The notes beneath the pieces were generated by a model that made no database searches, was not told where the DNA came from, and saw nothing but the letters and a program-made list of their open reading frames with translations. Both the position numbers and the translations under genes were made by a program. From sequence record NC_047998.1: a stretch of DNA of 50,403 bases. One strand, given 5' to 3'. Every line of letters begins with the position of its first letter. Within the stretch, counting starts at the first letter, position 1. This document shows positions 9,608 through 50,338 of this stretch, piece by piece. The DNA is from Shigella phage Sfin-1.

Positions 9608-9703
9608 GCGTCGCGTGCCGAGAAACAGGTTGATAGTTTGACCCCAATGGTAATTTTATCCATGATTTATTCCTATGATTGGTTGCTTAACTCAACGAAG
9701 GGC

Positions 9704-10193: not shown

Positions 10194-10223
10194 GAGTGTT
10201 CCCTCGTTCGTTGGTGTAGGGGA

Positions 10224-10267
10224 ATCATATCGCATTCCCATTGATAGGTTTTAGCAATTCGTGCTAT
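10224..10267 (-). promoter_or_regulatory. Early promoter cassette (dyad plus 22 bp plus TATGAT)
   Basis: TAGCACGAATTGCTAAAAC, 22-bp spacer, TATGAT; GGGAAT/ATTCCC hairpin. Confidence 0.5.
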
Positions 10268-10469
10268 TCGTTTTAATAGTGATGCAAAAATAATTTTTTA
10301 AGCACGTCACCACGCGCGCTGAATCTACTTGTGGAAGCCTTAAAATTTCATGGACCAGTTGCACTGCCGACACGTCAAAATTGTAGTAGTGTGCGATTCT
10401 GGAGGTATTTGGGAGCATCCCTTCCACTGCGTCACGCGCTGCATCTTCCGCTGTCATGATAGTAGCCAT
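10251..10469 (-). CDS. Hypothetical protein (72 aa)
   Basis: AAGGG RBS; stop lies within the downstream promoter dyad. Confidence 0.35.
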   Translation of the reverse strand: MATIMTAEDAARDAVEGMLPNTSRIAHYYNFDVSAVQLVHEILRLPQVDSARVVTCLKNYFCITIKTNSTNC

Positions 10470-11757: not shown

Positions 11758-11885
11758 AGCTGATTCCTTATTTGCAAAACGGGCAGGTTGATTTATTTCC
11801 GCTGCCACCATGATTAGGGCAGCACACTTTCTCAATTGGTGTCATAGCTGATTCCTCTGATTGGTTGCCGTGCTTCAATAAGGCC

Positions 11886-11929
11886 ACTATATCAAATGGC
11901 CTTGCGGAAGGTTTAGCAATTCGTGCTAT
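11886..11929 (-). promoter_or_regulatory. Early promoter cassette (dyad plus 22 bp plus TGaTATAGT)
   Basis: TAGCACGAATTGCTAAACC, 22-bp spacer, extended -10; GGCCA/TGGCC hairpin. Confidence 0.55.
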
Positions 11930-12075
11930 CGTTTAACACACATTGTTTTTACTTCGTATCCGAACGGCTTGTTTTCTGCAATTACTTCCCGAGCCTTGTT
12001 ACATGCTTGCTGACTTTCCATGTATACGTGATCCGGCCCGGTACTCATCAAGATAATCAAGACCCATGCAGCCAT
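11926..12075 (-). CDS. Small membrane peptide (49 aa), below the ORF-track cutoff
   Basis: TAATG overlap with the upstream stop; GAGGTG RBS; hydrophobic N-terminus; its stop is the TAG of the promoter dyad. Confidence 0.3.
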   Translation of the reverse strand: MAAWVLIILMSTGPDHVYMESQQACNKAREVIAENKPFGYEVKTMCVKR

Positions 12076-13338: not shown

Positions 13339-13368
13339 GATAAATCCTCGTTCGTTATCGATGGGGTT

Positions 13369-13412
13369 ACTATATCGCAACCCCGGAATTGAGTTTTAAC
13401 AAAAAGTGCTAT
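13369..13412 (-). promoter_or_regulatory. Early promoter cassette (dyad variant TAGCACTTTTTGTTAAAAC plus 22 bp plus cgaTATAGT)
   Basis: Same spacing; GGGGTT/AACCCC hairpin. Confidence 0.5.
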
Positions 13413-13600
13413 TCTTTAATTTCGAAGCAATCAGTATCTTCGTCGAATACCCAGGGGTCGCCATTATCATCAAGCAATGAGACGTTACCGAAGCTGGTTA
13501 GCGACGCACTATAAGGCTTGTCAACGGTAAAGCACTCTTTCACTTCCTGGTCCTCACTACCTTTGAATACTGCAATCATTTGGTGCATAAAATCAGCCAT
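13409..13600 (-). CDS. Hypothetical small acidic protein (63 aa)
   Basis: Acidic ORF immediately after a promoter cassette. Confidence 0.4.
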   Translation of the reverse strand: MADFMHQMIAVFKGSEDQEVKECFTVDKPYSASLTSFGNVSLLDDNGDPWVFDEDTDCFEIKE

Positions 13601-14351: not shown

Positions 14352-14389
14352 GGCGAATCCTCTGATTGGTATCTCGTTTTGATGGGGTA

Positions 14390-14433
14390 ACTATAGCAAG
14401 ATACCCCGATCCGGTTTTAACAATTCGTGCTAT
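14390..14433 (-). promoter_or_regulatory. Early promoter cassette (TAGCACGAATTGTTAAAAC plus 22 bp plus TGcTATAGT)
   Basis: Same architecture; GGGGTA/TACCCC hairpin. Confidence 0.55.
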
Positions 14434-14900
14434 TTGGTGAGATACTTTACCTCACTGCCGGAAATCATATTCCAACCATCATCAAAGAATACGCTATAGC
14501 ATGTTGCCGAGCGATGGCGAATCTTGGATACAGTGCGCCACACCTTACGGCCCGAGTAACCAGTCAGCACACGCATCCCTGGCGATAGCTCACCCGACTT
14601 TCTCACCTTAATGCTCACGTCAGAGTCAAGATCGAACGACCCCAGGCGAACCGGATTGACCATCTCAAACATTCTCATAACTTCGTGATCTTCTTTCCCC
14701 TCGCAGCCACCGCTAGCCTTAACCGCTTCAACAAAATCACTCAGCTTGTCAGTGAGTAAATCGCCATCGTAAGCCTCAATTGAGATGACCGTGTAATGAG
14801 TGTACGTGTGCCAGTGCGATCCGGTTTTGTGCTCGAACGCGAAGAATGACATTTCGCCATCAATCTCATCTTTAGCCAGGAATACGGTAATGGTTGTCAT
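14430..14900 (-). CDS. Hypothetical protein (156 aa)
   Basis: Long ORF with no recognisable motif. Confidence 0.45.
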   Translation of the reverse strand: MTTITVFLAKDEIDGEMSFFAFEHKTGSHWHTYTHYTVISIEAYDGDLLTDKLSDFVEAVKASGGCEGKEDHEVMRMFEMVNPVRLGSFDLDSDVSIKVRKSGELSPGMRVLTGYSGRKVWRTVSKIRHRSATCYSVFFDDGWNMISGSEVKYLTK

Positions 14901-22558: not shown

Positions 22559-22946
22559 CGTTCTTACGAAGTGAAAAATAAATCATCAACAGGCCAATAA
22601 AAACGAGAGTCCACCCTACAATTGCATCGTACCAGTTCCCCGGTTTTGTTACCGTGATGCTTTCAGCGTTAACCGTGTTAGCCTGAATGGTTGACACTTC
22701 CACAGACTTCTTGACGGATGAGTCAATCTTGCCAATATTTGAATCACTCACCTTCACTTCTCGCTTATCGTCGGCCTTTGCAGTAACTCCCGCCAGTTGC
22801 TTAGTGTTCTCAGCGCCAACCTGCGCAGTAACATCCGGGGAGTCAGAAAGTAAACCGCTCAGAGCAGATGCCGTCGAGCAACCGGATAGAGAAATAACAC
22901 CAACAGCCACTGCAATCGCAATGCACGTTTTCTTCAGTTTCATCAT
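22542..22946 (-). CDS. Unimolecular spanin (T1 gp11-type)
   Basis: N-terminal lipoprotein signal with lipobox LSGC plus C-terminal transmembrane helix; last gene of the lysis cassette. Confidence 0.6.
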
Positions 22947-24004: not shown

Positions 24005-25156
24005 TTAGTGCGATCCTGTCATTTCTGGACGATAGATGAATCGCCCGATTTCACCAAACTGTTTATCGTAAACGATTACCGCCGCCTGGCGATATGAGCG
24101 CCACCCTCCTCGCGCTGCGTATGCATCTTTCGCGCCTAACTGCCCGTGAACCTCATCAATACCTAACGAGTGTTCAGTAATTGTCTGATGATGCCAGTGT
24201 CCGCTATGCGTGTACACGTATTTGCTTTCACCAAAATCTGCGCGGAAATCTGCTGCCATCGCTGCAAGTCGCGTGTCTGCCTTTTTCATCGTGTGACCGT
24301 GAGTGTATCCCAACAAGGTATTTCCCCAGCGGGTCTTATGCAGAATCATAGGACTAACGTCAACGAATACTCGCGGCTCGTCCTCATAGTATGCAGCCAT
24401 TGCAGCGCGTAGCCAAATCATTCCGGCCTGGTCGTGGTTCCCTTCGATAACCTGAACTTCGACCTCTTTGTGTTTAGTCAGCATTTTGTCGATAGCTCGT
24501 CGCACCGATCGAATAGCCACATGCACCAATTTCGCATATCGTGAATCCTGATCCAGAACGTGACCACTTGCCGGGGTAACAGCATCAAGACCGTCTGAGT
24601 GAAGGAAGTCGCCGCCGATTAACAGAACAGCCTTCTCTGCGTTCGGGGCAATATCGATCGCGTAGTTAAAGAAGTCATTCAGCACTTTTTCCGCTACGTC
24701 TGTAGAGTAGTTCTCTCCGCATTCATGCTTGTGAGCAAGTGCGCCAATGTGAAGATCGAACACCGGGTAGAGTGCCAGCTTGCCAATAGCGGTTGTAAGC
24801 CCTTGCGAGGTGAGTAGCTCAGTTGGTTTTGCTCGCGGCAAGTCTTCACAGAATGCAATACGCGCAGCTTCCATCATTGCCGCAATCTTCTCACGGTCCT
24901 GATCGGTCTTAACCCATCGCACTACCTCGGTCCCATCGCCGCGAATCATAGTTGATGTGCCTTTTACCATGAATCCTTCCGGTACGTTCTTAGCAACATG
25001 CTCGTTACCGTGGAAGTGACCTTCTTTTGCAAGTTTGGCGTGACGCGCTTCAACTGTGCGGATGTGCATACCGTACTTTTCAGCGATCTCGCGAAGTGTA
25101 AGTCCGCTCATGCGCTCTTCGATAAGTTGCTCGGTAGTGATTTTAGCTTGTGACAT
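24005..25156 (-). CDS. Calcineurin-like metallophosphoesterase with N-terminal helix-turn-helix domain
   Basis: Phosphoesterase motifs D-x-H (FDLHIG), GDxxD (GGDFLHSDG), GNHD, GHTH, GHWH; N-terminal LTLREIAEKYGMHIRTVE resembles an HTH. Confidence 0.6.
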   Translation of the reverse strand: MSQAKITTEQLIEERMSGLTLREIAEKYGMHIRTVEARHAKLAKEGHFHGNEHVAKNVPEGFMVKGTSTMIRGDGTEVVRWVKTDQDREKIAAMMEAARIAFCEDLPRAKPTELLTSQGLTTAIGKLALYPVFDLHIGALAHKHECGENYSTDVAEKVLNDFFNYAIDIAPNAEKAVLLIGGDFLHSDGLDAVTPASGHVLDQDSRYAKLVHVAIRSVRRAIDKMLTKHKEVEVQVIEGNHDQAGMIWLRAAMAAYYEDEPRVFVDVSPMILHKTRWGNTLLGYTHGHTMKKADTRLAAMAADFRADFGESKYVYTHSGHWHHQTITEHSLGIDEVHGQLGAKDAYAARGGWRSYRQAAVIVYDKQFGEIGRFIYRPEMTGSH

Positions 25157-25926: not shown

Positions 25927-25958
25927 CTTATTATTCCTCATTTCGTTTTGATGAAATA

Positions 25959-26002
25959 ACTATACCCGACTTTCGCCGGGTAGTTTTAGCAATTAGTGCT
26001 GT
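25959..26002 (-). promoter_or_regulatory. Promoter cassette (TAGCACTAATTGCTAAAAC plus 22 bp plus TATAGT)
   Basis: Same architecture as the early cassettes; CCCGGCGAAAGTCGGG hairpin. Confidence 0.5.
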
Positions 26003-26244
26003 AAGATCGTGTCGGATTTAAGTTCTTCTACGTCTTTCTGAATGATTGAAGGCCAATGCTCTATGTGTTTATTCTTTATCTCATCGAACGACATATCAAG
26101 AGAACTTGTAAACTCCCATAAATCGCAACCAATAACATCTTGAGTTAATCCGTTTCTCTCCATAATTTCGCAGCACGTAGCGCGATAAAGAAGCCATAAC
26201 CCTTGATCGGTTAATTTAACAGGAACCATTTTTTCGCTCATCAT
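25993..26244 (-). CDS. Hypothetical protein (83 aa), translationally coupled to the Dam gene
   Basis: ATGA overlap with the Dam stop. Confidence 0.45.
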   Translation of the reverse strand: MMSEKMVPVKLTDQGLWLLYRATCCEIMERNGLTQDVIGCDLWEFTSSLDMSFDEIKNKHIEHWPSIIQKDVEELKSDTILQH

Positions 26245-35682: not shown

Positions 35683-35913
35683 ATGAAAAAGTTAATCACC
35701 ATTATCGCTGCGGCATTCATCCTGACTGGTTGTGCTCAGAATCTTAAAAATGGCGACTGCGTTACTTACGCATACGGTTCTTGCATGATGCGATTCGTTG
35801 ATGGTCAAAAGGTTCCTGCTGGCGAAATTGATATGCGATTCAAAGGTCTGTCATCCGACGACGATCAGGGCAACTTTAGCGGCAAGGTGTCAATCAAAAC
35901 TAAAGAGTGGTAA
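35683..35913 (+). CDS. Small lipoprotein, candidate superinfection-exclusion protein (Llp/Cor-like)
   Basis: Signal peptide with lipobox LTGC; 76 aa; adjacent to the tail-tip and receptor-binding region. Confidence 0.5.
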   Translation: MKKLITIIAAAFILTGCAQNLKNGDCVTYAYGSCMMRFVDGQKVPAGEIDMRFKGLSSDDDQGNFSGKVSIKTKEW

Positions 35914-35915
35914 TT

Positions 35916-36872
35916 ATGGGACAAGGAATATATATAAACCTAAACGACGGTCGCCCGGCAATGGAGATAACTTCAGGGCTTCGCGCCCCGTCATGGTGTG
36001 GACCTATACAGGCTGACGGAGTTGATTCATCTGGATCGGTTTTTGATTTTGGTCTGCAAATGAGTCCAGGATCTACCGCTTTTTGCCTTCCATCTCAGGC
36101 TATCTACATAGACGATATGGATTACATCCCGGAGGTGTATTATTTGACTAGTTTTCAGAAGGTCAATGATTCAACCGGACGAATAACGGTAGGTAATTTT
36201 AACGGGCACGGTGGAAGGAGGATGAGATTTTATGGAAACTGCTACGAAATCCTCCCCGCTCAGGCTGGAAATCAGGGGATACTTGTTAACGATTCAACGA
36301 ACTTCGCAGCTATACCGAATAACGCCAGATTGATGAGCGCTGCATTTGTTGGGGGGATTCAGGTTAACGGTCAGGCTCAGTTGCCAGTACAGGGCGTTCC
36401 TTTCGGTATGTGGGATAATCCAAACGTAACACTTGAATCTGACGGCAATACAATATGGTGCAGGGATGCAAACTATAACGGGATTGATGACGTTGGCGCT
36501 AGCGTATACGTGCAACTCGTAATATTTAATAACACTCCACCACCCCCAGGGCCAGGAATAACCATGAGTAATCCTGCTGGTCAGATCGTCTTCTCAAGCG
36601 TTAGACGCCCATTCGTTCTCGGCGGGACTATGGCGATAAATGACGGGTGGCAGTGGTGTGGTGGATTTTTCCCAATACTAAGAACAGGTACGATATGCAG
36701 AGTTACAGGTGGATATAATAACATTCGATACAAGGGCGTGTGTATGAGCGGCGGTAACGTGAGAAGCGCCCCAGGAACAAGAGTAGGTAATTATTCCACC
36801 CAAAGCGGAGCGCAATTCCCCTTCAATATAAACATTTCAATGCCAATTCCTTTCACTCCGAACATGTATTAA
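35916..36872 (+). CDS. Hypothetical protein, candidate receptor-binding / tail-associated protein
   Basis: About 318 aa, Gly/Asn-rich beta-like sequence with a PPPPGPG linker; location beside the J-like gene and lipoprotein; no motif-level support. Confidence 0.35.
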   Translation: MGQGIYINLNDGRPAMEITSGLRAPSWCGPIQADGVDSSGSVFDFGLQMSPGSTAFCLPSQAIYIDDMDYIPEVYYLTSFQKVNDSTGRITVGNFNGHGGRRMRFYGNCYEILPAQAGNQGILVNDSTNFAAIPNNARLMSAAFVGGIQVNGQAQLPVQGVPFGMWDNPNVTLESDGNTIWCRDANYNGIDDVGASVYVQLVIFNNTPPPPGPGITMSNPAGQIVFSSVRRPFVLGGTMAINDGWQWCGGFFPILRTGTICRVTGGYNNIRYKGVCMSGGNVRSAPGTRVGNYSTQSGAQFPFNINISMPIPFTPNMY

Positions 36873-36898
36873 AAAAAGGGGCCAATCGGCCCCTTTCT
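36871..36898. terminator. Bidirectional intrinsic terminator between the 35916 gene and the J-like gene
   Basis: GGGGCC-AATC-GGCCCC hairpin with A7 upstream and a T-rich tract downstream. Confidence 0.7.
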
Positions 36899-36899
36899 G

Positions 36900-39800
36900 T
36901 TACCAGACACCAACAACCACTCGACCCCCGTTAGGTAAGTTGACCGTGATACCGTTATTGTTTATCTGAACCGTGTTATTTGTTCCGTTAAATGCAAACT
37001 CTCCGTTATTTGCGTAAATTCTACCCCTCACGGTTGCATTCATGAATGAAGCGTCGCCATTCTTGTTTATGGCCCACCCATTACTCCCATCCCAATTGTT
37101 AGATTGAATCCAGTTTCCAATCATGGCATTAGTAATAAAGCCATCCTTGATGATCGCACTACTTAGAATAACCTGGCCATTCTCAACAACGAATGGGTAC
37201 TGAGTCTGACCATTCATCCCTGTCATGATTGCAAATCGTGATGCCTCAAACAAAATCTGCGCCTTAACCGCAGCTCCGGAACCAATCAGAGACATAGCCA
37301 TGCCTGCACTGTATTCTTGTCCGTTATACTTCAGACCGAGCTTGACGCCGTACATTGCACCAGTCGAATCCGCATTGCTCCACGAATCAAGTTTTTGAGA
37401 AAGCGCTGCCTCATTATTCCCAAGCCTCGCGCTTAACGACAAGTCAGCTTGCGTTCTCGCCTCAGTCTCGTTTGCTATAGCCTCTCTGATATCAGTCAAA
37501 CTTGCCTGGATATCATCACCAATCTCTGCCTTGAGTTGGTCAATTTCACGCGATAGCGCTCCAGTCTCAGTTGCGATAACTTCACGCAATTCGCTGTTGC
37601 TAGCGCTAATCTGATCGCCAAAACTTGCTTTCAATTGCTCGATCGCCGTCACTCGTGCCTGCGTCTCATCAGCAATAAGTTTCAGTGATTTCGTGTACTC
37701 AGCTTTTCGTTTTCCGTTCTCCTTCTTCATGTAGATCGCGTCTTTGTCATTGGCGAGCGCGTTTTCTATTGCTGCCTCTGCGTTAGCTGCGTTCTGCGCC
37801 GCGTTGTCGGTTGCGTTATCAACAAGCCACTCGTAACCAGGCGAGTTTTCGATATCGACAGAAATCTCCCCAATGATATCGTCAACGTTTGTTGATGCCA
37901 TACCTCTGACAAAATCAGTCCACTGAGACACGTTACCGATCCTATCAACCGTCCTTACCCGATACCACACAATATTCCCGCCCGGCATCGGTGAATGATA
38001 ATACTCATGCTGCGGATACGGGATCAGAGAGAGTAAACTCGCATTGTCAACCGTTCCATCCGGTGACTGTTGCAACTCTGTATAGGCCGTATCTCCAGAA
38101 CCATCAGAGAACCCCCATTTTGTACGGATACCAAAAACAACATCATCCGTAGCTGTAAGGTTAATCGGTCGACCCGGCTCACCTTGTTTGCCCGTCAGCG
38201 TCGCAGCTACGATATTTGACCATCCTGAAGTCGTACCGGAACCAGCTACGGAGCGAACGCGAACCTGATAGTTGCCAGCGTAAATACCTTCAACGTATAC
38301 CTCTTTGTTTGCTGTCTGTGGTACATTTTGCCAGTTGCCATTATCCTTTCTCCACTGAACATCATAGAAAACTGCGTACGGCACTTTATCCCAGCTTACA
38401 ATCATCGTCTCTACGCTCATCCCCTGGACGATTCGTGACTCAGATGACACTTGCACGTTTTCCGGTCTAGGGATCTGGTCTGGTTCAACGATACTCGTCG
38501 GTCTGTCGTCTATGTTCACACCGTAATCAATCTCATCGTACTTGTTAGGATCGTACTCCACCGCAGTAATCTTGTAGGTAAATTCCTCATCGTCATCACC
38601 CTTATCGATTTTTGTCACGACGTACTGCTGTAACGCAATGTCTGTGCGGTCGATAGCGAATACCGTGTTAGGCTTCACAGGAAAGCCAAAGCCAATGTTA
38701 ACCTCTATAGTCTTACCATCCGCACTAACACTTGAGATTGTGCGCTTCACGGGCTTGCCATCTGGCTTATTTACGATAATAAAGTCACCCGCGCGTGCAT
38801 CCACCCGGAACGGCAAGAAAATCTGACTTCCAGACACTTCGAGCAAGCGCCCTGATAGGTTCATCGTCAAGTTACTTGACCAGAAGTTATCAGCTATTGC
38901 CACAACATCTCCGATTGTCGGGATCATACCCTCAAGACCGGTAGCGAAGTTTACCGTAGTGCTGCGGAGGTTGGTTTTCAGAATCCATCTCCCGCGTCGG
39001 TTGGCCTCGCTTCGACGTGTGCAACCGATCGCTGTAATGCTGGTTACGTTATTACCGAACCGCAGAGTCGCCTCACGATCGAATACTGGCTCAACGTCCT
39101 GTTGATACATGTTTTGCTCGTCGTCAAACATCACGTTACACGTCGTGTACATACTCTTTTCGCTTGCGAACGTATAGGAGAAGTCACCATTAACAACGTT
39201 GTCGTTAGTGAAGATGTAAGCAGGCTCACGCGGTCTGTCGATGATTACCGAGATGCTTTCGCCATTCCAGAAGCTCATACCACGGAAGATTGAGCAAATA
39301 TCTCGAATCACCTTATACGCATCAGTCTGTGACTGAATTATCACGTCGCAAAGGTAGCGAGGCTCCGTACCGCCTTTCCCGTCAGGAACCATCTGGTCGC
39401 AATATTGCGCCGCCTCATATAGCGCCCATTTATCGACAGATATTCCAAGCTCTTTCTGATCCAGCCCGTAACGCTGATTAATCATCAAGTCATAAAGAAC
39501 CCAAGCCGGATTATTAGTCCACGCCTTCTTAAAAGTGCCATCCCAATTTCCGTTATAAGTTCGTGATTCCGGATCGTAGTTTGACGGAACGTTTACAATT
39601 TTCCAGCGCTTACGAATTGAGATCGTAGGTAACTGGTTTGGGAACATCTTCGAGTCGAACTCTACGAAAAGAAGACCTGTCAGAGGGTAACGGAATTTGG
39701 CATCAATCACCTCGGCATAGCTCTTTACCTGAATCGCATCAACAACGTTTGAATTATCAGAATCTGGAGTCTTTCGAACAATCCTGAATATAACCTGGTT

Positions 39801-40349
39801 ATTGAAGTTTGGCAGGTTTACACGACGGCTTCGATCGTAACCTGACATTGTTTTGCCTTCGATTACGTCAGTAAGAATAGTCTCAAACGAACCACTATCA
39901 ACCGCTTGCTGCACTTCGTACTCAACGCGAACGCCGTTTTTATCGCCGTTGCTTTCAATGCGTACGCCGCGAGGCATGAACATTTTAATACGGATTGCCG
40001 ACAGCGTCTTGTTGGTTACTGAGATCGTGTATGGATTATCGGTAGTAATCTCACGGTTTACAGTTACCTCGCTGGAGCTATCCTCCATGCCCTTAATGTA
40101 TTCCTGAGTCTGCGTACCCGGCCTGAACTCTGCTGTTACGCCCTCAAAGTTAAAAGAGCCATCCTCGTTTTGCACCGGGACTGAGTTAAACATCAGTTGC
40201 TTAAGGTTGAATGTTTCGTCAACCTCGCCATCAGATACTGCCAGAAGAATTTTGATTTTGTTGATTGAGATTAGATTATCTTCCATCTCAACTGGCTTAT
40301 GCGGCTTTTGTGATCCACCTTTAGATCCACTTATCACTTTTTGAATCAT
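36900..40349 (-). CDS. Tail tip / host-specificity protein (lambda J-like)
   Basis: 1149 aa; last gene of the tail module after the I/K/L/M homologs. Confidence 0.85.
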   Translation of the reverse strand: MIQKVISGSKGGSQKPHKPVEMEDNLISINKIKILLAVSDGEVDETFNLKQLMFNSVPVQNEDGSFNFEGVTAEFRPGTQTQEYIKGMEDSSSEVTVNREITTDNPYTISVTNKTLSAIRIKMFMPRGVRIESNGDKNGVRVEYEVQQAVDSGSFETILTDVIEGKTMSGYDRSRRVNLPNFNNQVIFRIVRKTPDSDNSNVVDAIQVKSYAEVIDAKFRYPLTGLLFVEFDSKMFPNQLPTISIRKRWKIVNVPSNYDPESRTYNGNWDGTFKKAWTNNPAWVLYDLMINQRYGLDQKELGISVDKWALYEAAQYCDQMVPDGKGGTEPRYLCDVIIQSQTDAYKVIRDICSIFRGMSFWNGESISVIIDRPREPAYIFTNDNVVNGDFSYTFASEKSMYTTCNVMFDDEQNMYQQDVEPVFDREATLRFGNNVTSITAIGCTRRSEANRRGRWILKTNLRSTTVNFATGLEGMIPTIGDVVAIADNFWSSNLTMNLSGRLLEVSGSQIFLPFRVDARAGDFIIVNKPDGKPVKRTISSVSADGKTIEVNIGFGFPVKPNTVFAIDRTDIALQQYVVTKIDKGDDDEEFTYKITAVEYDPNKYDEIDYGVNIDDRPTSIVEPDQIPRPENVQVSSESRIVQGMSVETMIVSWDKVPYAVFYDVQWRKDNGNWQNVPQTANKEVYVEGIYAGNYQVRVRSVAGSGTTSGWSNIVAATLTGKQGEPGRPINLTATDDVVFGIRTKWGFSDGSGDTAYTELQQSPDGTVDNASLLSLIPYPQHEYYHSPMPGGNIVWYRVRTVDRIGNVSQWTDFVRGMASTNVDDIIGEISVDIENSPGYEWLVDNATDNAAQNAANAEAAIENALANDKDAIYMKKENGKRKAEYTKSLKLIADETQARVTAIEQLKASFGDQISASNSELREVIATETGALSREIDQLKAEIGDDIQASLTDIREAIANETEARTQADLSLSARLGNNEAALSQKLDSWSNADSTGAMYGVKLGLKYNGQEYSAGMAMSLIGSGAAVKAQILFEASRFAIMTGMNGQTQYPFVVENGQVILSSAIIKDGFITNAMIGNWIQSNNWDGSNGWAINKNGDASFMNATVRGRIYANNGEFAFNGTNNTVQINNNGITVNLPNGGRVVVGVW

Positions 40350-40397
40350 GATGCTTACCTTTTTGTGCTATTTATCGGTGGACTCATTATACAGGCG

Positions 40398-40421
40398 AAA
40401 AAAAACCCGCGCAAGGCGGGT
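40398..40421 (-). terminator. Intrinsic terminator (CCCGC-GCAA-GGCGGG hairpin plus U8)
   Basis: Strong hairpin and 8 T on the minus strand after the gpI-like gene; core identical to the hairpin at 42583..42597. Confidence 0.65.
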
Positions 40422-40426
40422 TAATT

Positions 40427-41026
40427 TTAACTCATATCCTCGGCATAAGAACCTGCCGAGAAAGTTGCGCCACCTCCGGCGCGATATCCATATGGGATCG
40501 GGAGAGGGTATCCCGCCGCCGTAGTATTGACAGCACCACCGAACGCGTACGAAGGTTTATTCTTGCTTGACTGAACCTCAAAATTTGCGCCTCCAGGCTG
40601 CGGTGAAATCATCTGCATCACGCCGCCCAGCACCATAGCGCCGCCCATCATAAACAGAGACGAGGACATTGTTCCCATTAACGCCAGAGATGCGCCGCCA
40701 GTATAGAACGCAGCAACCATTATTGCCGCACCCAATACAACCTGGAATAGACCGCCTGACTTAGAACCAGTCGGGATCGGGACAATCCTTATCTCTTTGG
40801 CACACTTGAATTTTTCCTCTTCATGGTGTCCAACGTTAACGCCATCCACAAATATTGCAAACTTGCTACGTGATCCGACCTCACTTTGCATATATTCTTT
40901 GAATCCATCCACTTGACTTGATAGCGCCCGGATAGCTTCCGGGTAAGAGTCAACGGCGAATCTGTGAAATACGCCGAAGCGCCTTCCAAGTGAACCGGAT
41001 AATTTGATTACTTTTACATCATTCAT
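40427..41026 (-). CDS. Tail assembly protein (lambda gpI-like)
   Basis: Gly-rich hydrophobic central region; position after the gpK homolog. Confidence 0.7.
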   Translation of the reverse strand: MNDVKVIKLSGSLGRRFGVFHRFAVDSYPEAIRALSSQVDGFKEYMQSEVGSRSKFAIFVDGVNVGHHEEEKFKCAKEIRIVPIPTGSKSGGLFQVVLGAAIMVAAFYTGGASLALMGTMSSSLFMMGGAMVLGGVMQMISPQPGGANFEVQSSKNKPSYAFGGAVNTTAAGYPLPIPYGYRAGGGATFSAGSYAEDMS

Positions 41027-41757
41027 AATTTAAGATCCTTATGGCGAACAATTAAAACAGTATGATCCTGATACCAGCCGGAATAGATATCACGTCGCGA
41101 AAGTTTGCCAAAGGCGTGATGCAAGATCTGATTATCACCCAGGTAAATCCCTGCGTGGTTCCATACCGGAACATTTTGCCCTATCTGCATGATTACCATA
41201 TCCCCGAATGATGGGTTATTCTGATCTGGAATCTCAACGAATCCATCTTGCTTGTAATAATCCTGATAGAGATTAATTCCGTACTCAGGTTTCCACCATT
41301 CAAAATTCAATCGGCGATCGCGTAACTCTACGCCGTGCTCTTTGTGCCACGCCATTACTAGCCCGTAACAGTCAAATGAGCCTAACGACCACGGTCGACC
41401 AATCAGAGGTAATTTCTCAGGCTTAACAAATCGCATATCTCCTTCCGGTACGCTAACAATAATCCAGGTAAGTTCCATCTCGTTGCACATGCATGTGTCG
41501 TGCGCACTGGGAAGAGTTGTAGCCCCGTCTCCTGTGTGGCTGTGAACGATCGCAATCGTGGTTGAGTCTGCGTCATCCTCAATACATGCGTATTGCACTG
41601 CGTCCATCATGAAATGATTCTCAGGATCGCGATGCACGTTATCAATGCGATGGTATTTTTGCACGCGTCCTTTTTGGGTAACTACCCCGCAGCATTCGCG
41701 GGGGTATTCTTCTTGAGCGTGAGTCATGATTTCAAGTTTAATTTTTGCATTAATCAT
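41023..41757 (-). CDS. Tail assembly protein (lambda gpK-like, MPN/JAB plus NlpC/P60 domains)
   Basis: JAB-like HSHT...S.HD motif and NlpC/P60-like Cys/His (DCYGLV...H.GIYLG...HH). Confidence 0.8.
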   Translation of the reverse strand: MINAKIKLEIMTHAQEEYPRECCGVVTQKGRVQKYHRIDNVHRDPENHFMMDAVQYACIEDDADSTTIAIVHSHTGDGATTLPSAHDTCMCNEMELTWIIVSVPEGDMRFVKPEKLPLIGRPWSLGSFDCYGLVMAWHKEHGVELRDRRLNFEWWKPEYGINLYQDYYKQDGFVEIPDQNNPSFGDMVIMQIGQNVPVWNHAGIYLGDNQILHHAFGKLSRRDIYSGWYQDHTVLIVRHKDLKL

Positions 41758-42536
41758 TGATTTTTCCTCTGTAGTGAAGCAACCGCGCAGCCGCCAAAAT
41801 CCAGTTCATTGTTTGCGCCGAATCGCAGGCGGCAGGCCGTTACCGTGCCTGGGCAGAAATCCAAAGCAGGATCGTCTACCGGATTATTGTCTTTGTCAAA
41901 ATAACCGTTTTGCCCGTTGTATCCGCAGCCTTTCCCGGTTTTATACCATCCCCGCTGCGCCCAATAGCAAACGCTTTGCGTTAGTCGAGACGGGATCATG
42001 ATGCCATCCATATCATACGGAGACGTGAGATCGAATCGGGCGACGCTCTTATCGACATAGCTCGGGCGTTCGATATAGTATACCAGTTTGCGGTAAGCGC
42101 CGTCAGCTATTGAGCCGTCAGGTTGAATTAAGTCCTTTTGAGTGATCCAGATTGTCACCTTAGCTTGCATCAATCCGTTATATGATCGAATCATTGCAGA
42201 TACTCTGCTATCAATGTTCGCCACCGTCAACTGTGGTTTTGTTGCCTTGCCGGAACTATCAAACGAGATCCCGGATATGCCGAACGGGCGCGCTCCATAT
42301 TGCTCCCCACGGAATGTAATTTCTTTCGGCGGCAGCGTTCCAGTTTGCTGGGCCTGCATGATTTCCTCTGGAGTGTACTGGATATTCTCTCCGTGGAATC
42401 GATACACCTGAGCGCCGAACTTGCTACCATCCACTTCGATCAGAGTGATAATCTCTCCAGGATACAGTGATTGCAGGCAGTTATGAAACAGGCTCTTTCC
42501 GCTTTCTTCATCATACAGTTTTTTGTTTTCGCTCAT
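41754..42536 (-). CDS. Minor tail protein (lambda gpL-like)
   Basis: C-terminal Cys cluster (CYWAQ...C.Y...C...C...C); start at the ATG with AGAGGA RBS. Confidence 0.75.
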   Translation of the reverse strand: MSENKKLYDEESGKSLFHNCLQSLYPGEIITLIEVDGSKFGAQVYRFHGENIQYTPEEIMQAQQTGTLPPKEITFRGEQYGARPFGISGISFDSSGKATKPQLTVANIDSRVSAMIRSYNGLMQAKVTIWITQKDLIQPDGSIADGAYRKLVYYIERPSYVDKSVARFDLTSPYDMDGIMIPSRLTQSVCYWAQRGWYKTGKGCGYNGQNGYFDKDNNPVDDPALDFCPGTVTACRLRFGANNELDFGGCAVASLQRKNQ

Positions 42537-42576
42537 TGATTTTTCCTCTTGTTTGCCTGCAACCATTCTACAGCTA

Positions 42577-42598
42577 CAAAAAACCCGCGCAAGGCGGG
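42577..42598 (-). terminator. Intrinsic terminator, duplicate of the hairpin at 40406..40420
   Basis: Identical CCCGCGCAAGGCGGG stem-loop followed by U6. Confidence 0.55.
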
Positions 42599-42614
42599 CT
42601 TTTGTCATAAGGTG

Positions 42615-42968
42615 CTACTCCATAGATGTAAACTGCTCCATAAACGTGACGTTAATCTCCATCACGTCGCGTGATACTGGCTTCGCACCCAAGCTGTTAG
42701 GCTTGACTACCCATACCCCGATCTTACCGTCCGGTGGAGTCCATGCGAACGGCTTTATGCGGTGAGAGTTGCAGAAGTCGTAAACAGACATGAAATCTTC
42801 CCCAGCATAGACAACTGAATACTCGCGTCGCGTGGTGTTAAATCCAGAAGATGCAAGCTGCATGTAGCCGTTTCCAAACTGTATGGATCTGTCATTGTTG
42901 GTAGTGGTAAGTGAGCCGCCACCCCCTTGAACCTGCGTACACCAACTGAAAGTGTCAAGCGTCGCCAT
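42615..42968 (-). CDS. Minor tail protein (lambda gpM-like)
   Basis: About 117 aa from the ATG with AGGAGG RBS; sits between tape measure and gpL homolog. Confidence 0.65.
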   Translation of the reverse strand: MATLDTFSWCTQVQGGGGSLTTTNNDRSIQFGNGYMQLASSGFNTTRREYSVVYAGEDFMSVYDFCNSHRIKPFAWTPPDGKIGVWVVKPNSLGAKPVSRDVMEINVTFMEQFTSME

Positions 42969-43034
42969 TATTAGCCTCCTGTTTTTCCTGAATGTAATTG
43001 TAAACCTCACCGCCCTGCGAACAAGACTCTCGAA

Positions 43035-45842
43035 TCATTTTTTGAACATCATTTCTACGCCCTGAGAAATTCCTCTCGGATCTGAACCGTTGTCAACTTT
43101 AACCTCCATACCCCTAACATCAACGACCGTCCCGCCTGCTGACTGGTTCGCTGCCTTCGGTGCGGATTTAGATGCGTTAAATCCAGAGGTTGCAACACTA
43201 CCCGCAGCGGCAGCAAGCGAGGTAACGGCAACGCCTGAAGATAAAGACCTAAAACCAGAGACGGCAGGCGTAGGAGTTGCCTGTGATGCCGCAGAAGCGC
43301 TAGAGGTCAATCCACTTGCAAAACTCCATGTCTTACCTCCCGTCATGCCTGAGATCGTATTGAAGATTACCATCTGAGCAATCATCTTGATAATCATGCT
43401 AATGATATTTTTCGCAAAGTCCTCAAAATTTGCCTTACCTGTAGTAAGGAATTGGGTCATCATATCACTCATTCCGTTAAGTGAACTTGACGCGATATCA
43501 TACACGTTGCCGTACATATCCATTGCAGAATCGCCGTAATCTGCAAATGCGCTTTCAGCACCAGCTAACCAGTCAGCGCGCTTGGCATCTTCCGCAGCAT
43601 AGTAATCATTTTGTGCCTTGATCATGTTCTGGAGTTTTTCATCTCCTTCGCTGCCACCTGCATTAATATAGTCAGTGGTGATCTTAGCCAATTCCGCTTG
43701 TCGTTCCATTTCTCGAGTGCTCATCCCGCGAGACGCGTTTAGCTGCTCTGTAGCTGCCGTCAAATCATTGACAAATTTCAGTGATTTATCGGTAAGTGCG
43801 TTCAACTGCTGCTGCTTAACAATCTGATCGCCAATCTCAGCCTTTTGTTTCGCAAGCTCTAAAACCTTCTCTTGGTTTGCAAGTAGTGCTTTTTCTTCCG
43901 CAGATAGCTGACGCTTAGAACTAGCTTCTCGAAGAACAGCAATTGTAGCCTCAGTCGTAAAAAGCGCCTTTCTCTGTGCTGATATTTTTTGCCCGATCTC
44001 CTTGTGCTCCTGCAAAACCTTAAGCTGCGCTTTGAGTGAAATTAACTCCTTATCGAATTGCTCTGTAGGTGAGCGTAAAATTTTCGACTGCTTATTTCGT
44101 TCACGGTTTCGCTTTTCGATCTCTTTAGCTTCTTCCTTGATGGCGTCCTTAGTTTCCTGGCTATACTGCTTTTCAAGAGTACGGCGCTGCTTCATTGCTT
44201 CAATGTATCCCATCTCACCTTTTTCAACACGGGCGTTGATGGCATCAAGCTCTGAAGCTAACTGATCGTAGTTGTCACGAGAACTTTTTACAATATTCTC
44301 CTGTTCCTTTAGTACATCAGCGCCGAAATCACTCATTCCAGGCAGAGACTGCGTAGCCTTAATTGCAGAGGCTATAAAGTTTGAGATGTACTCATCACCC
44401 TTCGCCAGAATCATTTTTACCTGAATTACCGTACCCTGAACTACGTCAATAATCAGGTTTAATGCTCCGAGAGTATGATCCCCAACCCACCCCCACGCAT
44501 CAGAGGCCCACTGCTTAATATCGTTCCACATTTTTTCCAGAGGGGTAGCATTATCAGCGATCGACTTCATTCGTTTTTCCATTACATCGGCGAATAATTT
44601 CGTGGCTTCAGACACTGCCTCTGTTTCACCCTTAGTACGGCTTAGCGTATCGATATATGTCAGTTGCCCTTTTTCTAAAAAGTTGTATTGCTCGTTAAGT
44701 TTAGCCAGACCCTTTACAGGATCGCTTGCGATTTTATCGAACTCAGCGATGATTTTACTTGCTGATTTACCGGTTGCTGTCGACCACTCAGCGGTAGCCT
44801 TTGTGATGTTCTGAATCTGCTCTCGCGTATACTTCCCCGTACTGGCAAGTTCAGTAACAATCTCACGAATGCTTGAAATTGTTGAATTGCTCGTCTGAGA
44901 CACCTTTTTAGCAACAGAATCAAGTTCTTCAGCCGTGACTCCTGCATAACCTCCAGTCTCAACAAGAGCCTTCTGCATATCAGTTATTGACTTGTAAGAG
45001 TCATAACCAGCTTTCGCAAGAAGACCTAAAGAGCCGACAAGAACACCAACACCAACTGTGACCGGATTAATATAGCTGAGCAATACCTTAAACGTATTCC
45101 CGATCCCGCCGAACGAGTCCTTGATTTGACCACCTTGCTGGATGGCAACCATCCAAACTGGCATACCGGACGCAAGAGATGTAACGACGTCGGTAATCTG
45201 TGCAGGAAGCATTCGCATTGCCTGCCTATATTGCCCCGCGCTAATACCTGCGGCATTCATGGCTCGACCCTGCTCTTTCAGTTTTGCGATCAGTGGCGCT
45301 GCTTCATTTGATAGTCCAAGCTGAGCCGCTTTCAGTTCCATTAACTCTGCGTGAGTTTTGCCAATAGCGTTAACCTGACTGTTCAGGGAATCCATGAACG
45401 CTTTGTTTTTCGCTGCTGCCTGCTCTTTTGCTTTCGCTTCCTGCAATGCTGCCTGCCCCTCTTCAGTAAGCATGGCTCGGCTGCGAGCAAGTTTTGCATT
45501 TTGCATGTCCAGCATTTCACCCAAACGGAAAAATGTTTCATCTGGAACAACGCCCTTTTGCCAGAGTTTATCAAGCTGCTGAGATGCAATCTTCAGCCTT
45601 TCCATTTTTGATACTGTAGGATCGATTGCCTTTTCTACAGCCTCGTACTCTTTGCGCTGGCGCTTAAGTTGCTCAGCGTGCTCTTTAGCCTTCTGTTTTG
45701 CAACCTCGGCCTCATTGATTAAAGACCCCATAGAGTCAGCGGCTTGGTCGTTAGCTTTTGAAAACTCTTTCAATGACTTGACGGCTCGCTGCACTGTCGA
45801 CACATCAACGTCAAGCGATAGACCTGCTACCTTATCAACCAT
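43035..45842 (-). CDS. Tail tape measure protein
   Basis: 935 aa, extended coiled-coil region and Gly/hydrophobic C-terminal part; start at the ATG with AAGGGGGG RBS. Confidence 0.9.
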
Positions 45843-45861
45843 ATAACCCCCCTTATATACA

Positions 45862-45882
45862 AAAAAACCGCCAGACGGCGGC
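45862..45882 (-). terminator. Attenuator or terminator hairpin between the chaperone and tape measure genes
   Basis: CCGCC-AGAC-GGCGG hairpin plus U7 on the minus strand. Confidence 0.5.
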
Positions 45883-46203
45883 TTAGTTATTCTGCTTAGC
45901 AATCATTTCAAGCGCTTTCGCTTCCATGATCCTAACGTCCTGCAATGCCAGTTCTTCATCTTCTATTTTATAGATTTTAAACAACATAGGCAAAACATTA
46001 TAGTCAAGACCATAAGCGCCAGCGCCTGAACTTCTCCACTGAGTGAGCATTGATGTAAAAACATTCCAAGCCTTCACCATTTCAGCGTCGCCAATTATCG
46101 TTTCAGGTTCCTCGTCTTCATAGTCTGAAAGACTTAAACCAACCGATCGCAATTGTTCCTCTGTTGGCGGCTTCTGATATAACAGATAGACCGCCCTTTT
46201 TAG
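45883..46203 (-). CDS. Tail assembly chaperone T-part, expressed as a G-T fusion by -1 frameshift
   Basis: ORF open in the -1 frame from the A_AAA_AAC heptamer (mRNA sense of 46203..46209) to 45883; no ATG of its own. Confidence 0.6.
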
Positions 46204-46517
46204 TTTTTTGCGCGGTGTCCGGCGAGAGCCTTGATGTAAGTTGCTGTCAGGTTGTACGCTGCTGAAGGATAATACTGAACCAGTTTTCGCGCATTTTCTT
46301 CGTTAAATTCTTCTTCAAGGTTCCATCCTGACGCGATCTTGGTAATGAACTCGCTGTCGTTCATTTCTCCTTGGTTGGCATACATATCCTGAACTTCTTT
46401 ACTGGAAAGGTGGCGTACAGTGAAAATGATCGTTGCATCTTCACCGTTAGGCATGGTGAAGGTGACTGGAAGTTTGAAGTCTGGAAGTTGACCAAGAACG
46501 AAATTAAATTTAGCCAT
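46200..46517 (-). CDS. Tail assembly chaperone (lambda gpG-like)
   Basis: 105 aa between major tail and tape measure genes; ends with a slippery heptamer and stop. Confidence 0.65.
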   Translation of the reverse strand: MAKFNFVLGQLPDFKLPVTFTMPNGEDATIIFTVRHLSSKEVQDMYANQGEMNDSEFITKIASGWNLEEEFNEENARKLVQYYPSAAYNLTATYIKALAGHRAKN

Positions 46518-46540
46518 GATATTTCTCCTGATTGGTTAAT

Positions 46541-46558
46541 GGCACTTTTTGTTAAAAG
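46541..46558 (+). promoter_or_regulatory. Isolated dyad element copy (TGGCACTTTTTGTTAAAA) without a -10 partner, antisense to flanking tail genes
   Basis: Sequence match to the early-cassette dyad; no -10 hexamer at 22 bp. Confidence 0.35.
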
Positions 46559-46630
46559 AGAATAGTGCAAACTTGATACGATGATTTTACAGAAATGAAT
46601 AAGGGGGCGCAAGCCCCCTGTGGATATGAT

Positions 46631-47299
46631 TTAGGCACCAGGTGATGCCAGAGCGGATGAAACGAAAGTGAAATCACCCTTCAGGGATACGGCGAGTTGT
46701 ACCGTTTCCATTTCGTTTACTTGCGTAGATGGAATGTCGTTAAAAGACAAGATACCAGCCCACATGCGCATCTCGTTCGCTTTTGGAACATACATCCGAA
46801 CCGCAGTTACCTGACCAGAAGAATCCAGCTTACGCAGAATAGGATAGATAGGGTTATCAAATTCGTGCGCGAAGGTGTACGTTAGCGAGATTGCAGACTT
46901 AAACGTCGGGATCTGCTGCTCTTTATCGTCAGACAAACACTGATAAGTGTAATACTGCTGCTCGCCGCCGTCCTGACCAATCTCCTGTACGCAAGGGATC
47001 TCAGTCCAGCCAGTAATTTTTGCAAAGCTCATTGTACCGCCAGCCGGGAAAACAAGAGCATCAGTAGTGTCAATCCCAGCAAGAGTAATGCTTGTTTCTT
47101 GGGCGTCAGTAACAATTAGTACTCGACTAACCATCTTAGCCCAAGTTGACTGAGTTACAATAACGTAATCACCTTTCGCCAAGTCGCCCTTAGATGCAAC
47201 CGTAGCAACAGGATTTTTTGCGTTAGTGACAGCGGTCGCCTCGATCTCTTCTCCGCGAGAGGTTTCCACGAAAATTTGCGCGCCATTTGGTAAGTGCAT
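46631..47299 (-). CDS. Major tail (tube) protein
   Basis: 222 aa directly upstream of the chaperone pair and tape measure. Confidence 0.7.
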   Translation of the reverse strand: MHLPNGAQIFVETSRGEEIEATAVTNAKNPVATVASKGDLAKGDYVIVTQSTWAKMVSRVLIVTDAQETSITLAGIDTTDALVFPAGGTMSFAKITGWTEIPCVQEIGQDGGEQQYYTYQCLSDDKEQQIPTFKSAISLTYTFAHEFDNPIYPILRKLDSSGQVTAVRMYVPKANEMRMWAGILSFNDIPSTQVNEMETVQLAVSLKGDFTFVSSALASPGA

Positions 47300-47300
47300 A

Positions 47301-47699
47301 TTAAGTCTCCTTTGTGTCTACTCGTACTGTAAAGCGAACCGGAATCATCCACCCGCTTTCGTGTTTAACAATTTGATGCACGATTGCACCCTCGAAAATA
47401 TAACCAACGTTAAGCATTTTACCATCTTTGAAAAAATCAGCAATCTCTTTTGCTTTCAATCTTGCCTCGTCAACCCCTGATCCTGGAGGGAAAACCACTC
47501 CAATTTGCACGATAGCAATGTAAGACTTGCATTTTCTGTCAATGGATAGATAAAGTGTATCGCCTTCTATGTAATTAAATCTAAGCCACATACCGCCATC
47601 CTTCGGTGGTGTGAAGTTGCGGTTTTCCATGTAGTGAGGAAAATCTCTGTACTTTGACAGAAATGCGGCTCTAGCCGCCGCTGATAACTCATAGTGCAT
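47301..47699 (-). CDS. Tail terminator / tail completion protein (putative)
   Basis: Position immediately upstream of the major tail gene; 132 aa. Confidence 0.45.
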   Translation of the reverse strand: MHYELSAAARAAFLSKYRDFPHYMENRNFTPPKDGGMWLRFNYIEGDTLYLSIDRKCKSYIAIVQIGVVFPPGSGVDEARLKAKEIADFFKDGKMLNVGYIFEGAIVHQIVKHESGWMIPVRFTVRVDTKET

Positions 47700-50247: not shown

Positions 50248-50302
50248 GATTACTTCTCCTTAGTTAATAAAAAAAGCGTGATTATGTTCACGGCTTCAAT
50301 AA

Positions 50303-50320
50303 TAGCACTTTTTGTTAAAG
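50303..50320 (+). promoter_or_regulatory. Isolated dyad element copy (TAGCACTTTTTGTTAAAG) upstream of the capsid gene, antisense orientation
   Basis: Sequence match to the early-cassette dyad between the capsid start and the upstream gene stop. Confidence 0.35.
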
Positions 50321-50338
50321 CGTCAAAGTGTTTTTGTG

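What the first reader, a model, noticed from the sequence alone, without database searches (positions are those of the whole stretch)
40398..42598. Identical terminator hairpins duplicated 2.2 kb apart within the tail operon
The sequence AAAAAACCCGCGCAAGGCGGG occurs after the gpI-like gene (40400..40420) and after the gpM-like gene (42577..42597), bracketing the gpL/gpK/gpI genes. Each is followed by a U-run on the minus strand. Identical repeats could set graded expression within the tail operon and are also potential substrates for recombination.
Basis: seen in the sequence. Interest (0 to 1): 0.35.

Follow-up and report, generated by a model that had tools for sequence, protein, structure and literature searches.

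The report
Paired terminator–promoter cassettes, T1 tail genes
Two identical short hairpins in the tail genes of this T1-like phage are real but ordinary transcription stop signals, already annotated in phage T1, and each also seems to overlap a restart promoter for the next genes.

Summary
None is expected by chance.

The window is a T1-like phage (Tunavirus), essentially Shigella phage Sfin-4. All tail genes lie on the minus strand. There both copies read CCCGCCTTGCGCGGG followed by T6-8, directly after the gpM and gpI stop codons. That is the shape of an intrinsic terminator.

The T1 reference record and two relatives already annotate both homologous sites as rho-independent terminators. 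The core of the finding is therefore already known.

What I add:
- In about 100 non-redundant Drexlerviridae sequences, each hairpin is followed at a fixed distance by a conserved -10 box (TATAAT, TACAAT, TAGAAT or TATGAT).
- That box lies 17 nt downstream of a TTG in the hairpin loop, so each site is a terminator overlapping a sigma-70-type promoter.
- A third cassette of the same design follows the tail tube gene.
- Stems covary (GC<->CG), while T-12, A-11 and T-7 of the -10 box are invariant or nearly so.
- The exact hairpin also recurs in 65 unrelated phage contexts, so it is a generic terminator sequence.

I found no support for a recombination role. No transcript data were found.

The parts
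42584..42598 (-). Copy 2 hairpin (minus strand CCCGC-CUUGC-GCGGG), 16 nt after the gpM stop. The flanking A-tract and U-tract extend the stem.
   Evidence: RNA fold -14.7 kcal/mol. The homologous T1 site 22793-22816 is annotated as a terminator.
42578..42583 (-). U-tract of copy 2. It is T6 in the window and T7 in Sfin-4 GenBank and all other Tunavirus.
42587..42592 (-). -35-like TTGCGC, formed by the loop and 3' arm of the copy 2 hairpin
   Evidence: TTG is at least 90% conserved in alignment A1.
42565..42570 (-). -10-like TAGAAT upstream of gpL. The spacer is 16 nt here and 17 nt in relatives.
   Evidence: 50 of 55 unique family sequences carry TAGAAT, TATAAT, TACAAT or TATGAT at this place.
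40406..40420 (-). Copy 1 hairpin (CCCGC-CUUGC-GCGGG; 7 bp counting the AA/UU pairs at 40404-40422), 6 nt after the gpI stop
   Evidence: RNA fold -12.4 kcal/mol. The homologous T1 site 24972-24994 is annotated as a terminator.
40398..40405 (-). U-tract of copy 1 (T8)
40409..40414 (-). -35-like TTGCGC inside the copy 1 hairpin
40386..40391 (-). -10 box TATAAT (perfect consensus) with a 17-nt spacer, 36 nt upstream of the gpJ start codon
   Evidence: 51 of 52 unique family sequences have TATAAT or TACAAT, and 50 of 52 have a 17-nt spacer.
40355..40375 (-). DR-like element AAATAGCACAAAAAGGTAAGC in the predicted gpJ 5' UTR. It is the homologue of 'DR8' of phage TLS and overlaps the ribosome-binding site.
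46584..46619 (-). Third cassette of the same design after the tail tube gene: hairpin AGGGGGCTTGCGCCCCCT, a 17-nt spacer from TTGCGC, then TAAAAT
   Evidence: Conserved in T1, IME347, W011D and Reinasaurus.
40427..42539 (-). The gpL-gpK-gpI gene block bracketed by the two cassettes (predicted transcription unit)

Best explanation
The two repeats are rho-independent terminators of the late (tail) transcript. One lies after gpM and one after gpI. Each is fused to a host sigma-70-type promoter for the next genes.

On the coding strand each cassette reads: stop codon, then a GC hairpin whose loop and 3' arm spell TTGCGC (a -35-like box), then a U-tract, then a -10 box 16-17 nt from the TTGCGC, then a 5' UTR of about 20-30 nt with a Shine-Dalgarno site, then the next gene.

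Host RNA polymerase coming from upstream partly stops at the hairpin and U-tract. New initiation at the overlapping promoter, added to read-through, sets the level of gpL-K-I and of gpJ. The tail cluster is thus cut into units (tube | chaperones | TMP-M | L-K-I | J), the 'transcriptons' proposed for T1.

The two hairpins are identical because they are built to the same design. In Tunavirinae the M-L cassette was most likely copied or converted from an I-J-type cassette.

Shown: sequence, position, conserved structure, conserved -10 box and spacing. Inferred: actual termination, actual initiation, and their efficiencies.
For: - The repeat is exact and not due to chance.
- Both copies lie in the only gaps of about 75 nt in the M-to-J block, right after stop codons.
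- The RNA hairpins fold at -12.4 and -14.7 kcal/mol, within the range of the phage's other late terminators (-12 to -18.4).
- 97 of 98 non-redundant Drexlerviridae sequences keep a hairpin, through 13 (M site) and 10 (I site) different stem/loop versions with GC<->CG swaps.
- T1 RefSeq, SA12KD and SA32RD annotate both sites as rho-independent terminators. TLS lists the homologues T46 and T49.
- A -10 box is present in 50/55 (M site) and 51/52 (I site) unique sequences, with a 17-nt spacer in 48/55 and 50/52.
- In alignment A1, A-11, A-8 and T-7 are invariant and T-12 is at least 90% conserved, while the third hexamer position varies. That is the expected sigma-70 pattern, and the adjacent spacer columns are not conserved.
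- In most Tunavirus genomes the gaps are better conserved than the flanking genes: I-J gap 93-99% apart from the hairpin-less L026 (88%), against about 85-94% for most genes.
- Late gaps with a -10 box are 75-113 nt long. Terminator-only gaps are 29-49 nt.
- A third cassette of the same design follows the tube gene and is conserved in four of the five relatives examined, across four genera; ESCO41 keeps only the hairpin.
- The TLS paper cites the T1 genome paper for late 'transcriptons' flanked by terminators and containing RpoD promoters.
- The I-J spacer of L051 (GTAGCTGTATAAT) matches the Tunavirus M-L spacer (GTAGCTGTAGAAT), which supports copying of the cassette.
Against: - No transcript 5' or 3' end data for any T1-like phage were found.
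- The -35 box is weak: TTGCGC matches TTGACA at 3 of 6 positions.
- The TLS re-annotation, which used strict criteria, did not call promoters here and says it cannot state that TLS has transcriptons.
- The same hairpin occurs as a plain terminator without a -10 box in many unrelated phages, so the TTG in the loop need not be kept for promoter function.
- Sequences in the family sample are related, so the counts overstate the number of independent observations.
- The hairpin cores are short (5 GC pairs; TLS homologues -8.5 and -9.1 kcal/mol), so termination may be weak.
Confidence: 0.72

Rival explanations
1. They are plain intrinsic terminators or attenuators only. They step expression down along the tail operon, and the downstream TAnnAT boxes are not active promoters.
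For: The sites are annotated only as terminators in T1, SA12KD, SA32RD and TLS. The -35 box is weak. The same hairpin works without any -10 box in unrelated phages. Four other late terminators in this phage have no promoter.
Against: This does not explain why T-12, A-11 and T-7 are invariant or nearly so at a fixed 17-nt distance in about 100 non-redundant sequences from many genera, while neighbouring columns drift. It also does not explain the longer gaps at exactly these sites.
Confidence: 0.2
2. The hairpins mainly act after transcription, as 3'-end stabilisers or RNA processing boundaries. They would protect the upstream M and I messages from 3' exonucleases rather than stop the polymerase.
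For: The hairpins are short and GC-rich and sit directly after stop codons. Their core stability is modest.
Against: The U-tracts of 6-8 directly after the stem are conserved across the family. Termination needs a U-tract; stabilisation does not.
Confidence: 0.04
3. The repeats are recombination sites or module boundaries that promote exchange or rearrangement of the L-K-I block between phages.
For: The cassettes are better conserved than the flanking genes. In one relative (L016) one end of a near-identical block falls near the I-J cassette.
Against: The other end of that block lies inside L. Breakpoints in L017, L001 and L020 lie inside genes. Twenty-one nt is very short for homologous exchange. 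Intragenomic exchange would delete presumably essential genes, and no such variant was found in 95 genomes.
Confidence: 0.03

Closest known systems
Rho-independent terminators annotated in coliphage T1 (NC_005833: 22793-22816 and 24972-24994) and the T1 'transcripton' model (Roberts, Martin and Kropinski 2004, as cited in PMC11447400)
   Same: They occupy the same positions (after gpM and after gpI) and, to judge from the re-sequenced T1 (MK213796) and the IMG/VR T1 copy, have the same hairpin sequence, in a genome about 91% identical here. The model is also the same: late units bounded by terminators and containing RpoD promoters.
   Different: Essentially nothing differs for the terminators. 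The GenBank record lists no promoters in these gaps, and I could not read the 2004 paper. The -35-in-hairpin geometry and its conservation across the family may or may not have been stated before.
[quoted passage not shown]
   Same: An intrinsic terminator of the upstream unit physically overlaps the promoter of the downstream unit in a short, strongly conserved gap. This links the expression of neighbouring units and resists insertions.
   Different: Those are host chromosomal operons with experimental support. Here the setting is a phage late gene cluster, the cassette is used three times, and there are no expression data.
Terminators T46, T49 and T28 and direct repeat DR8 of phage TLS (PMC11447400, Table S1)
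   Same: T46 (after gpM) and T49 (after gpI) are the TLS homologues. DR8 lies in the I-J gap, like the AAATAGCAC element at 40355-40375.
   Different: In TLS the two hairpins are not identical (gccgccattgtgcggc vs cccgcggttgcgcggg as printed). The authors did not call promoters at these sites.
Post-termination RNA polymerase recycling and re-initiation at nearby promoters (Kang et al. 2020, PMC6978380; Harden et al. 2020, PMC6978322)
   Same: A promoter placed directly at a terminator is the geometry in which one-dimensional re-initiation would be most efficient.
   Different: That work was done only in vitro on artificial templates. Nothing here shows that it operates in T1-like phages.

Membership tests
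Intrinsic (rho-independent) terminator | GC-rich RNA hairpin on the transcribed strand | tested here: met
   CCCGC/GCGGG stem with a 5-nt loop. Folds at -12.4 and -14.7 kcal/mol with z-scores of -2.9 and -2.3. Listed by the terminator scan.
Intrinsic (rho-independent) terminator | U-tract immediately 3' of the stem | tested here: met
   T8 after copy 1 and T6 after copy 2 (T7 in relatives).
Intrinsic (rho-independent) terminator | Placed downstream of a stop codon, in the sense orientation of the operon | tested here: met
   6 nt after the gpI stop and 16 nt after the gpM stop, on the coding strand.
Intrinsic (rho-independent) terminator | Structure rather than sequence conserved among relatives (compensatory changes) | tested here: met
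   97 of 98 unique sequences keep a hairpin. GC<->CG swaps occur at pairs 2 and 5 (M site) and pairs 3 and 5 (I site).
Intrinsic (rho-independent) terminator | RNA 3' ends or transcript release at the U-tract | not testable with these tools
   No transcript data for T1-like phages were found.
Sigma-70 promoter | -10 hexamer close to TATAAT with conserved T-12, A-11 and T-7 | tested here: met
   TATAAT (I-J) and TAGAAT (M-L). In alignment A1, A-11 and T-7 are invariant, T-12 is at least 90% conserved and the third position varies.
Sigma-70 promoter | -35 hexamer close to TTGACA at 16-18 nt | tested here: inconclusive
   TTGCGC (3 of 6, the TTG part) at 17 nt, or 16 nt in the window's M-L copy. 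It is weak, and the same loop occurs in plain terminators elsewhere.
Sigma-70 promoter | Mapped transcription start or promoter activity | not testable with these tools
   No data found. The TLS authors did not call promoters here.
Terminator-promoter overlap ('operon concatenation') | Terminator hairpin and promoter elements share nucleotides in one short conserved gap | tested here: met
   The -35 candidate lies inside the hairpin in 54/55 and 52/52 unique sequences. The gaps are mostly better conserved than the flanking genes.
Terminator-promoter overlap ('operon concatenation') | Upstream transcription or termination changes downstream promoter output | not testable with these tools
   This needs reporter or transcript measurements.
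Known RNA families (Rfam) | Match to a curated covariance model | tested here: not met
   No hit at the two sites. The only hit in 36000-47500 is a sub-threshold SraG match at E = 0.46 elsewhere.

The most novel reading that the evidence does not exclude
The three cassettes would be a dedicated stop-and-restart device. Polymerase would release its RNA at a U-tract that lies inside the spacer of the next promoter, stay on the DNA, and re-initiate there. This would be the post-termination recycling so far seen only in vitro. A phage with no antiterminator and no polymerase of its own could then reset transcript levels gene block by gene block using about 45 nt of DNA.
Probability: 0.1. Interest if true: 0.6.

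Novelty: already known. Interest (0 to 1): 0.15.

Why it matters
It matters little as a discovery. The two terminators have been in the T1 reference annotation since 2004, and the idea of terminator-bounded late units in T1 is published.

The modest added value is comparative. The -10 box and its 17-nt distance from the TTG in the hairpin loop are conserved across the genera sampled at both sites, and a third cassette has the same design. This gives sequence-level support to the T1 'transcripton' idea, which the 2024 TLS re-annotation left open.

It also offers compact natural terminator-promoter parts of about 45 nt that could be tested directly. T1-like phages are common contaminants and candidate therapeutic phages, so a correct map of their late transcription units is useful for engineering them.

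Tried and rejected
- Chance repeat: rejected. 0 of 100 shuffles gave a match.
- Known structured RNA: an Rfam scan of 36000-47500 at E <= 1 gave nothing at the sites.
- Recombination substrate or module boundary: segment identities and 100-nt mismatch profiles against four relatives showed scattered breakpoints. No L-K-I deletion or duplication was seen in 95 genomes.
- Host-derived terminator: the 51-nt I-J cassette found no E. coli chromosomal terminator match. It matched only a CRISPR spacer in about 24 of 5,426 genomes.
- 'Loop conserved only because it is a -35 box': weakened. The exact 21-mer recurs in 65 non-T1-like phage contexts, mostly without a -10 box.
- Formal pair counting on the MAFFT alignment A1: not used, because the stems were out of register. 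I used a loop-anchored count in a script instead.
- The original T1 (PMID 14972552) and Rtp (PMC1367250) genome papers are not held. Their content is cited only through PMC11447400.
- Literature searches for T1 or Drexlerviridae transcript mapping found nothing usable.
- The promoter annotated in SA32RD upstream of the M-L terminator, over the gpM 3' end, is not conserved in the window. I did not adopt it.

Full report
**1. Observation**

The 21-mer AAAAAACCCGCGCAAGGCGGG occurs exactly twice in the window, at 40400-40420 and 42578-42598 on the + strand. Allowing three mismatches gives no further copy, and none of 100 dinucleotide-preserving shuffles produced a match. The repeat finder extends the similarity to 26 nt at 92%.

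**2. Context**

The 2.6-kb region is about 100% identical to Shigella phages Sfin-4 and Sfin-6 and about 91% identical to coliphage T1 (Tunavirus, Drexlerviridae). All genes here are on the minus strand. Pfam identifies them as follows:

| Gene | Coordinates |
|---|---|
| Tape measure | 43035-45902 |
| gpM-like | 42615-42968 |
| gpL-like | 41754-42539 |
| gpK-like (JAB + NlpC/P60) | 41023-41757 |
| gpI-like | 40427-41026 |
| gpJ-like | 36900-40349 |

Copy 2 lies in the 75-nt M-L gap and copy 1 in the 77-nt I-J gap.

**3. Terminator anatomy**

On the coding strand the copies read as follows:
- Copy 2: GCCCGCCTTGCGCGGG followed by T6
- Copy 1: AACCCGCCTTGCGCGGGTT followed by further T's

Each has a 5-bp GC stem and a 5-nt loop, extended by A/U pairs, and starts 6 nt (I) or 16 nt (M) after the stop codon. 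As RNA they fold at -12.4 and -14.7 kcal/mol. The other late terminators of this phage fold at -12 to -18.4, and the strongest follows gpJ at the end of the cluster. Rfam has no match here.

**4. Already annotated**

- The T1 reference record NC_005833 marks 22793-22816 (after gpM) and 24972-24994 (after gpI) as rho-independent termination sites.
- The records of SA12KD and SA32RD do the same.
- The TLS re-annotation lists the homologues T46 and T49 at -9.1 and -8.5 kcal/mol, among the weakest in its table.

I could not read the 2004 paper itself.

**5. What follows each hairpin**

Both gaps have the same layout:
- I-J gap: TTGCGC (loop plus 3' arm of the hairpin), 17 nt, then TATAAT
- M-L gap: TTGCGC, 16 nt, then TAGAAT

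Both -10 boxes are preceded by CTG and lie 30-36 nt upstream of the start codon.

A third late hairpin, after the tail tube gene (46602-46619, AGGGGGCTTGCGCCCCCT), has TTGCGC, 17 nt, then CTG-TAAAAT. The four other late terminators sit in gaps of 29-49 nt and run straight into the ribosome-binding site with no -10 box.

**6. Comparative test**

I collected 80 IMG/VR loci through gpL (63-99% identity), added 14 annotated relatives and the window itself (95 in all), and extracted the sequence after the M and I stop codons.

| Site | Unique 70-mers | With a -10 box | 17-nt spacer | -35 candidate inside hairpin |
|---|---|---|---|---|
| M | 55 | 50 (TAGAAT, TATAAT, TACAAT or TATGAT) | 48 | 54 |
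| I | 52 | 51 (TATAAT or TACAAT) | 50 | 52 |

In alignment A1, A-11, A-8 and T-7 are invariant and T-12 is at least 90% conserved. The third hexamer position varies (T, G or C), and the spacer columns next to the box are not conserved. That is the pattern expected of a sigma-70 -10 element.

The stems change while staying paired. There are 13 (M) and 10 (I) different arm/loop versions, with GC<->CG swaps at two positions per site, and 97 of 98 unique sequences keep a hairpin. In the most divergent clade the I-J hairpin is a wholly different sequence (AGCCTGGGGGCATAGCCTCCGGGCT), yet the T-run and a TACAAT box at the same distance remain.

In most Tunavirus genomes the two gaps are better conserved than the flanking genes (I-J gap 93-99% apart from the hairpin-less L026; M-L gap 87-97%; most genes about 85-94%). 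The third cassette is conserved in T1, IME347, W011D and Reinasaurus.

The exceptions are informative. In Nouzillyvirus, gpM is followed by a 45-nt terminator-only gap and then an extra ORF.

**7. Why the two hairpins are identical**

Only Tunavirinae (Tunavirus and Badaguanvirus IME347) have the M-L hairpin identical to the I-J hairpin. Other genera have GCCGCC(T)TTGTGCGGC or other stems at M-L, while the I-J core CCCGCCTTGCGCGGG is widespread.

The I-J spacer of locus L051 (GTAGCTGTATAAT) matches the Tunavirus M-L spacer (GTAGCTGTAGAAT). This suggests the Tunavirinae M-L cassette was copied or converted from an I-J-type cassette. That step is an inference.

Against reading too much into the identity: the exact 21-mer CCCGCCTTGCGCGGGTTTTTT occurs in 103 IMG/VR stretches. 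Of these, 65 have no protein similarity to this phage, and most have no -10 box. It is a generic, recurrent terminator sequence, so the TTG in its loop is not kept solely for promoter use.

**8. Recombination**

Mismatch profiles against four relatives show mosaic blocks whose ends lie inside L, inside K, inside J and at the TMP/M junction. Only one end falls near the I-J cassette. No genome lacks or duplicates L-K-I. Exchange between the two direct repeats would remove genes that are presumably essential, by analogy with lambda.

**9. Mechanism (best estimate, confidence 0.72)**

Host RNA polymerase transcribing the late cluster partly terminates at each hairpin and U-tract. The overlapping promoter adds new starts, so that L-K-I and J are expressed from read-through plus re-initiation.

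- Shown: anatomy, and conservation of the structure, the -10 box and the spacing.
- Inferred: termination and initiation in vivo, and their efficiencies.

[quoted passage not shown] A bolder reading is re-initiation by polymerase that stays on the DNA after termination (PMC6978380). Nothing here excludes it or supports it.

**10. Verdict**

The feature is real and functional-looking but ordinary. The terminators are already annotated in T1, and the unit structure has already been proposed. The promoter overlap and its conservation across the family are a modest refinement that still needs transcript mapping. Interest 0.15; novelty: already known.

Noticed in passing
window, e.g. + strand 6606, 8435, 9730, 10250, 11912, 13395, 14416, 15156, 25985, 27008, 29517, 31058; reverse complement at 17282, 17699, 17934, 20065, 22227, 46533, 50296: A roughly 20-nt oriented motif, AATAGCAC-N3-TTG-N-TAAAA, occurs at least 15 times between genes. 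It is the 21-nt direct repeat already described for TLS, T1 and Rtp, and its function is unknown. In the early regions it reads in the direction of transcription. Upstream of the tail chaperone gene and the major capsid gene it is inverted. At 50296-50323 the inverted copy forms a good promoter: TTGACG, 16 nt, then TGC-TATTAT.
   Followed up: partly
window 8401-8460, 9695-9754, 10215-10274, 11877-11936, 13360-13419, 14381-14440, 25950-26009: A 60-nt repeat family in the early region joins the direct repeat to a hairpin (for example GGGGTA...TACCCC) whose loop holds an extended -10-like TGCTATAGT. There is no T-run, so this hairpin sits over a -10 box rather than a -35 box and is not terminator-like.
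   Followed up: no
E. coli chromosomes, e.g. NZ_CP038180.1 976499-976525 (locus L204 201-232): About 24 of 5,426 complete E. coli genomes carry a type I-E CRISPR spacer, ATTAACCCGCCGTGCGCGGGTTTTTTTGTGCC, that resembles the I-J cassette. The best match has 3 mismatches, both to T1-like phages and to other contigs. The hairpin is generic and no canonical AAG PAM adjoins it in the sampled phages, so its source cannot be assigned.
   Followed up: partly
window 42577, 42981, 43037: The window differs from the Sfin-4 GenBank record by three single-base deletions in homopolymers. One shortens the M-L terminator T-tract from T7 to T6. The other two lie near the 3' end of the tape measure gene, so the window's ORF stops at 43035, whereas the homologous CDS in the Sfin-4 record runs to about 42971. 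These are probably sequencing artefacts.
   Followed up: yes
L026 (IMGVR_UViG_2974611450_000001), I-J gap: One Tunavirus genome has the I-J hairpin destroyed (AACCCGCTCCGCATTCATTTTTTTT) while the T-run and the TATAAT box are intact. It is either a natural terminator-less variant or an assembly error.
   Followed up: no
L028 (IMGVR_UViG_2974674285_000001), M-L gap: A deletion runs from just after the M-L hairpin to codon 42 of gpL. It removes the T-run, the -10 box, the ribosome-binding site and the gpL start. This is a defective genome or a mis-assembly.
   Followed up: no
L053, L054 (I-J gap 563 nt); L007 Lg3 (extra 468-nt ORF between L and K); L014 ESCO41 (extra 510-nt ORF between M and L): Some relatives carry extra small ORFs inserted at or near the cassette positions in the tail-tip gene block.
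   Followed up: no
window 35907-36872 (+ strand): A 321-aa ORF converges on the end of gpJ. T1 has same-strand genes at this place (ST32 and ST31). I did not examine it.
   Followed up: no
TLS T28 homologues, e.g. L101, L113, L119, L161, L167, L171: Tlsvirus-type genomes carry a further exact copy of CCCGCCTTGCGCGGGTTTTTTT elsewhere in the genome, followed by TACAAT- or TGTAAT-like boxes at a shorter distance.
   Followed up: no
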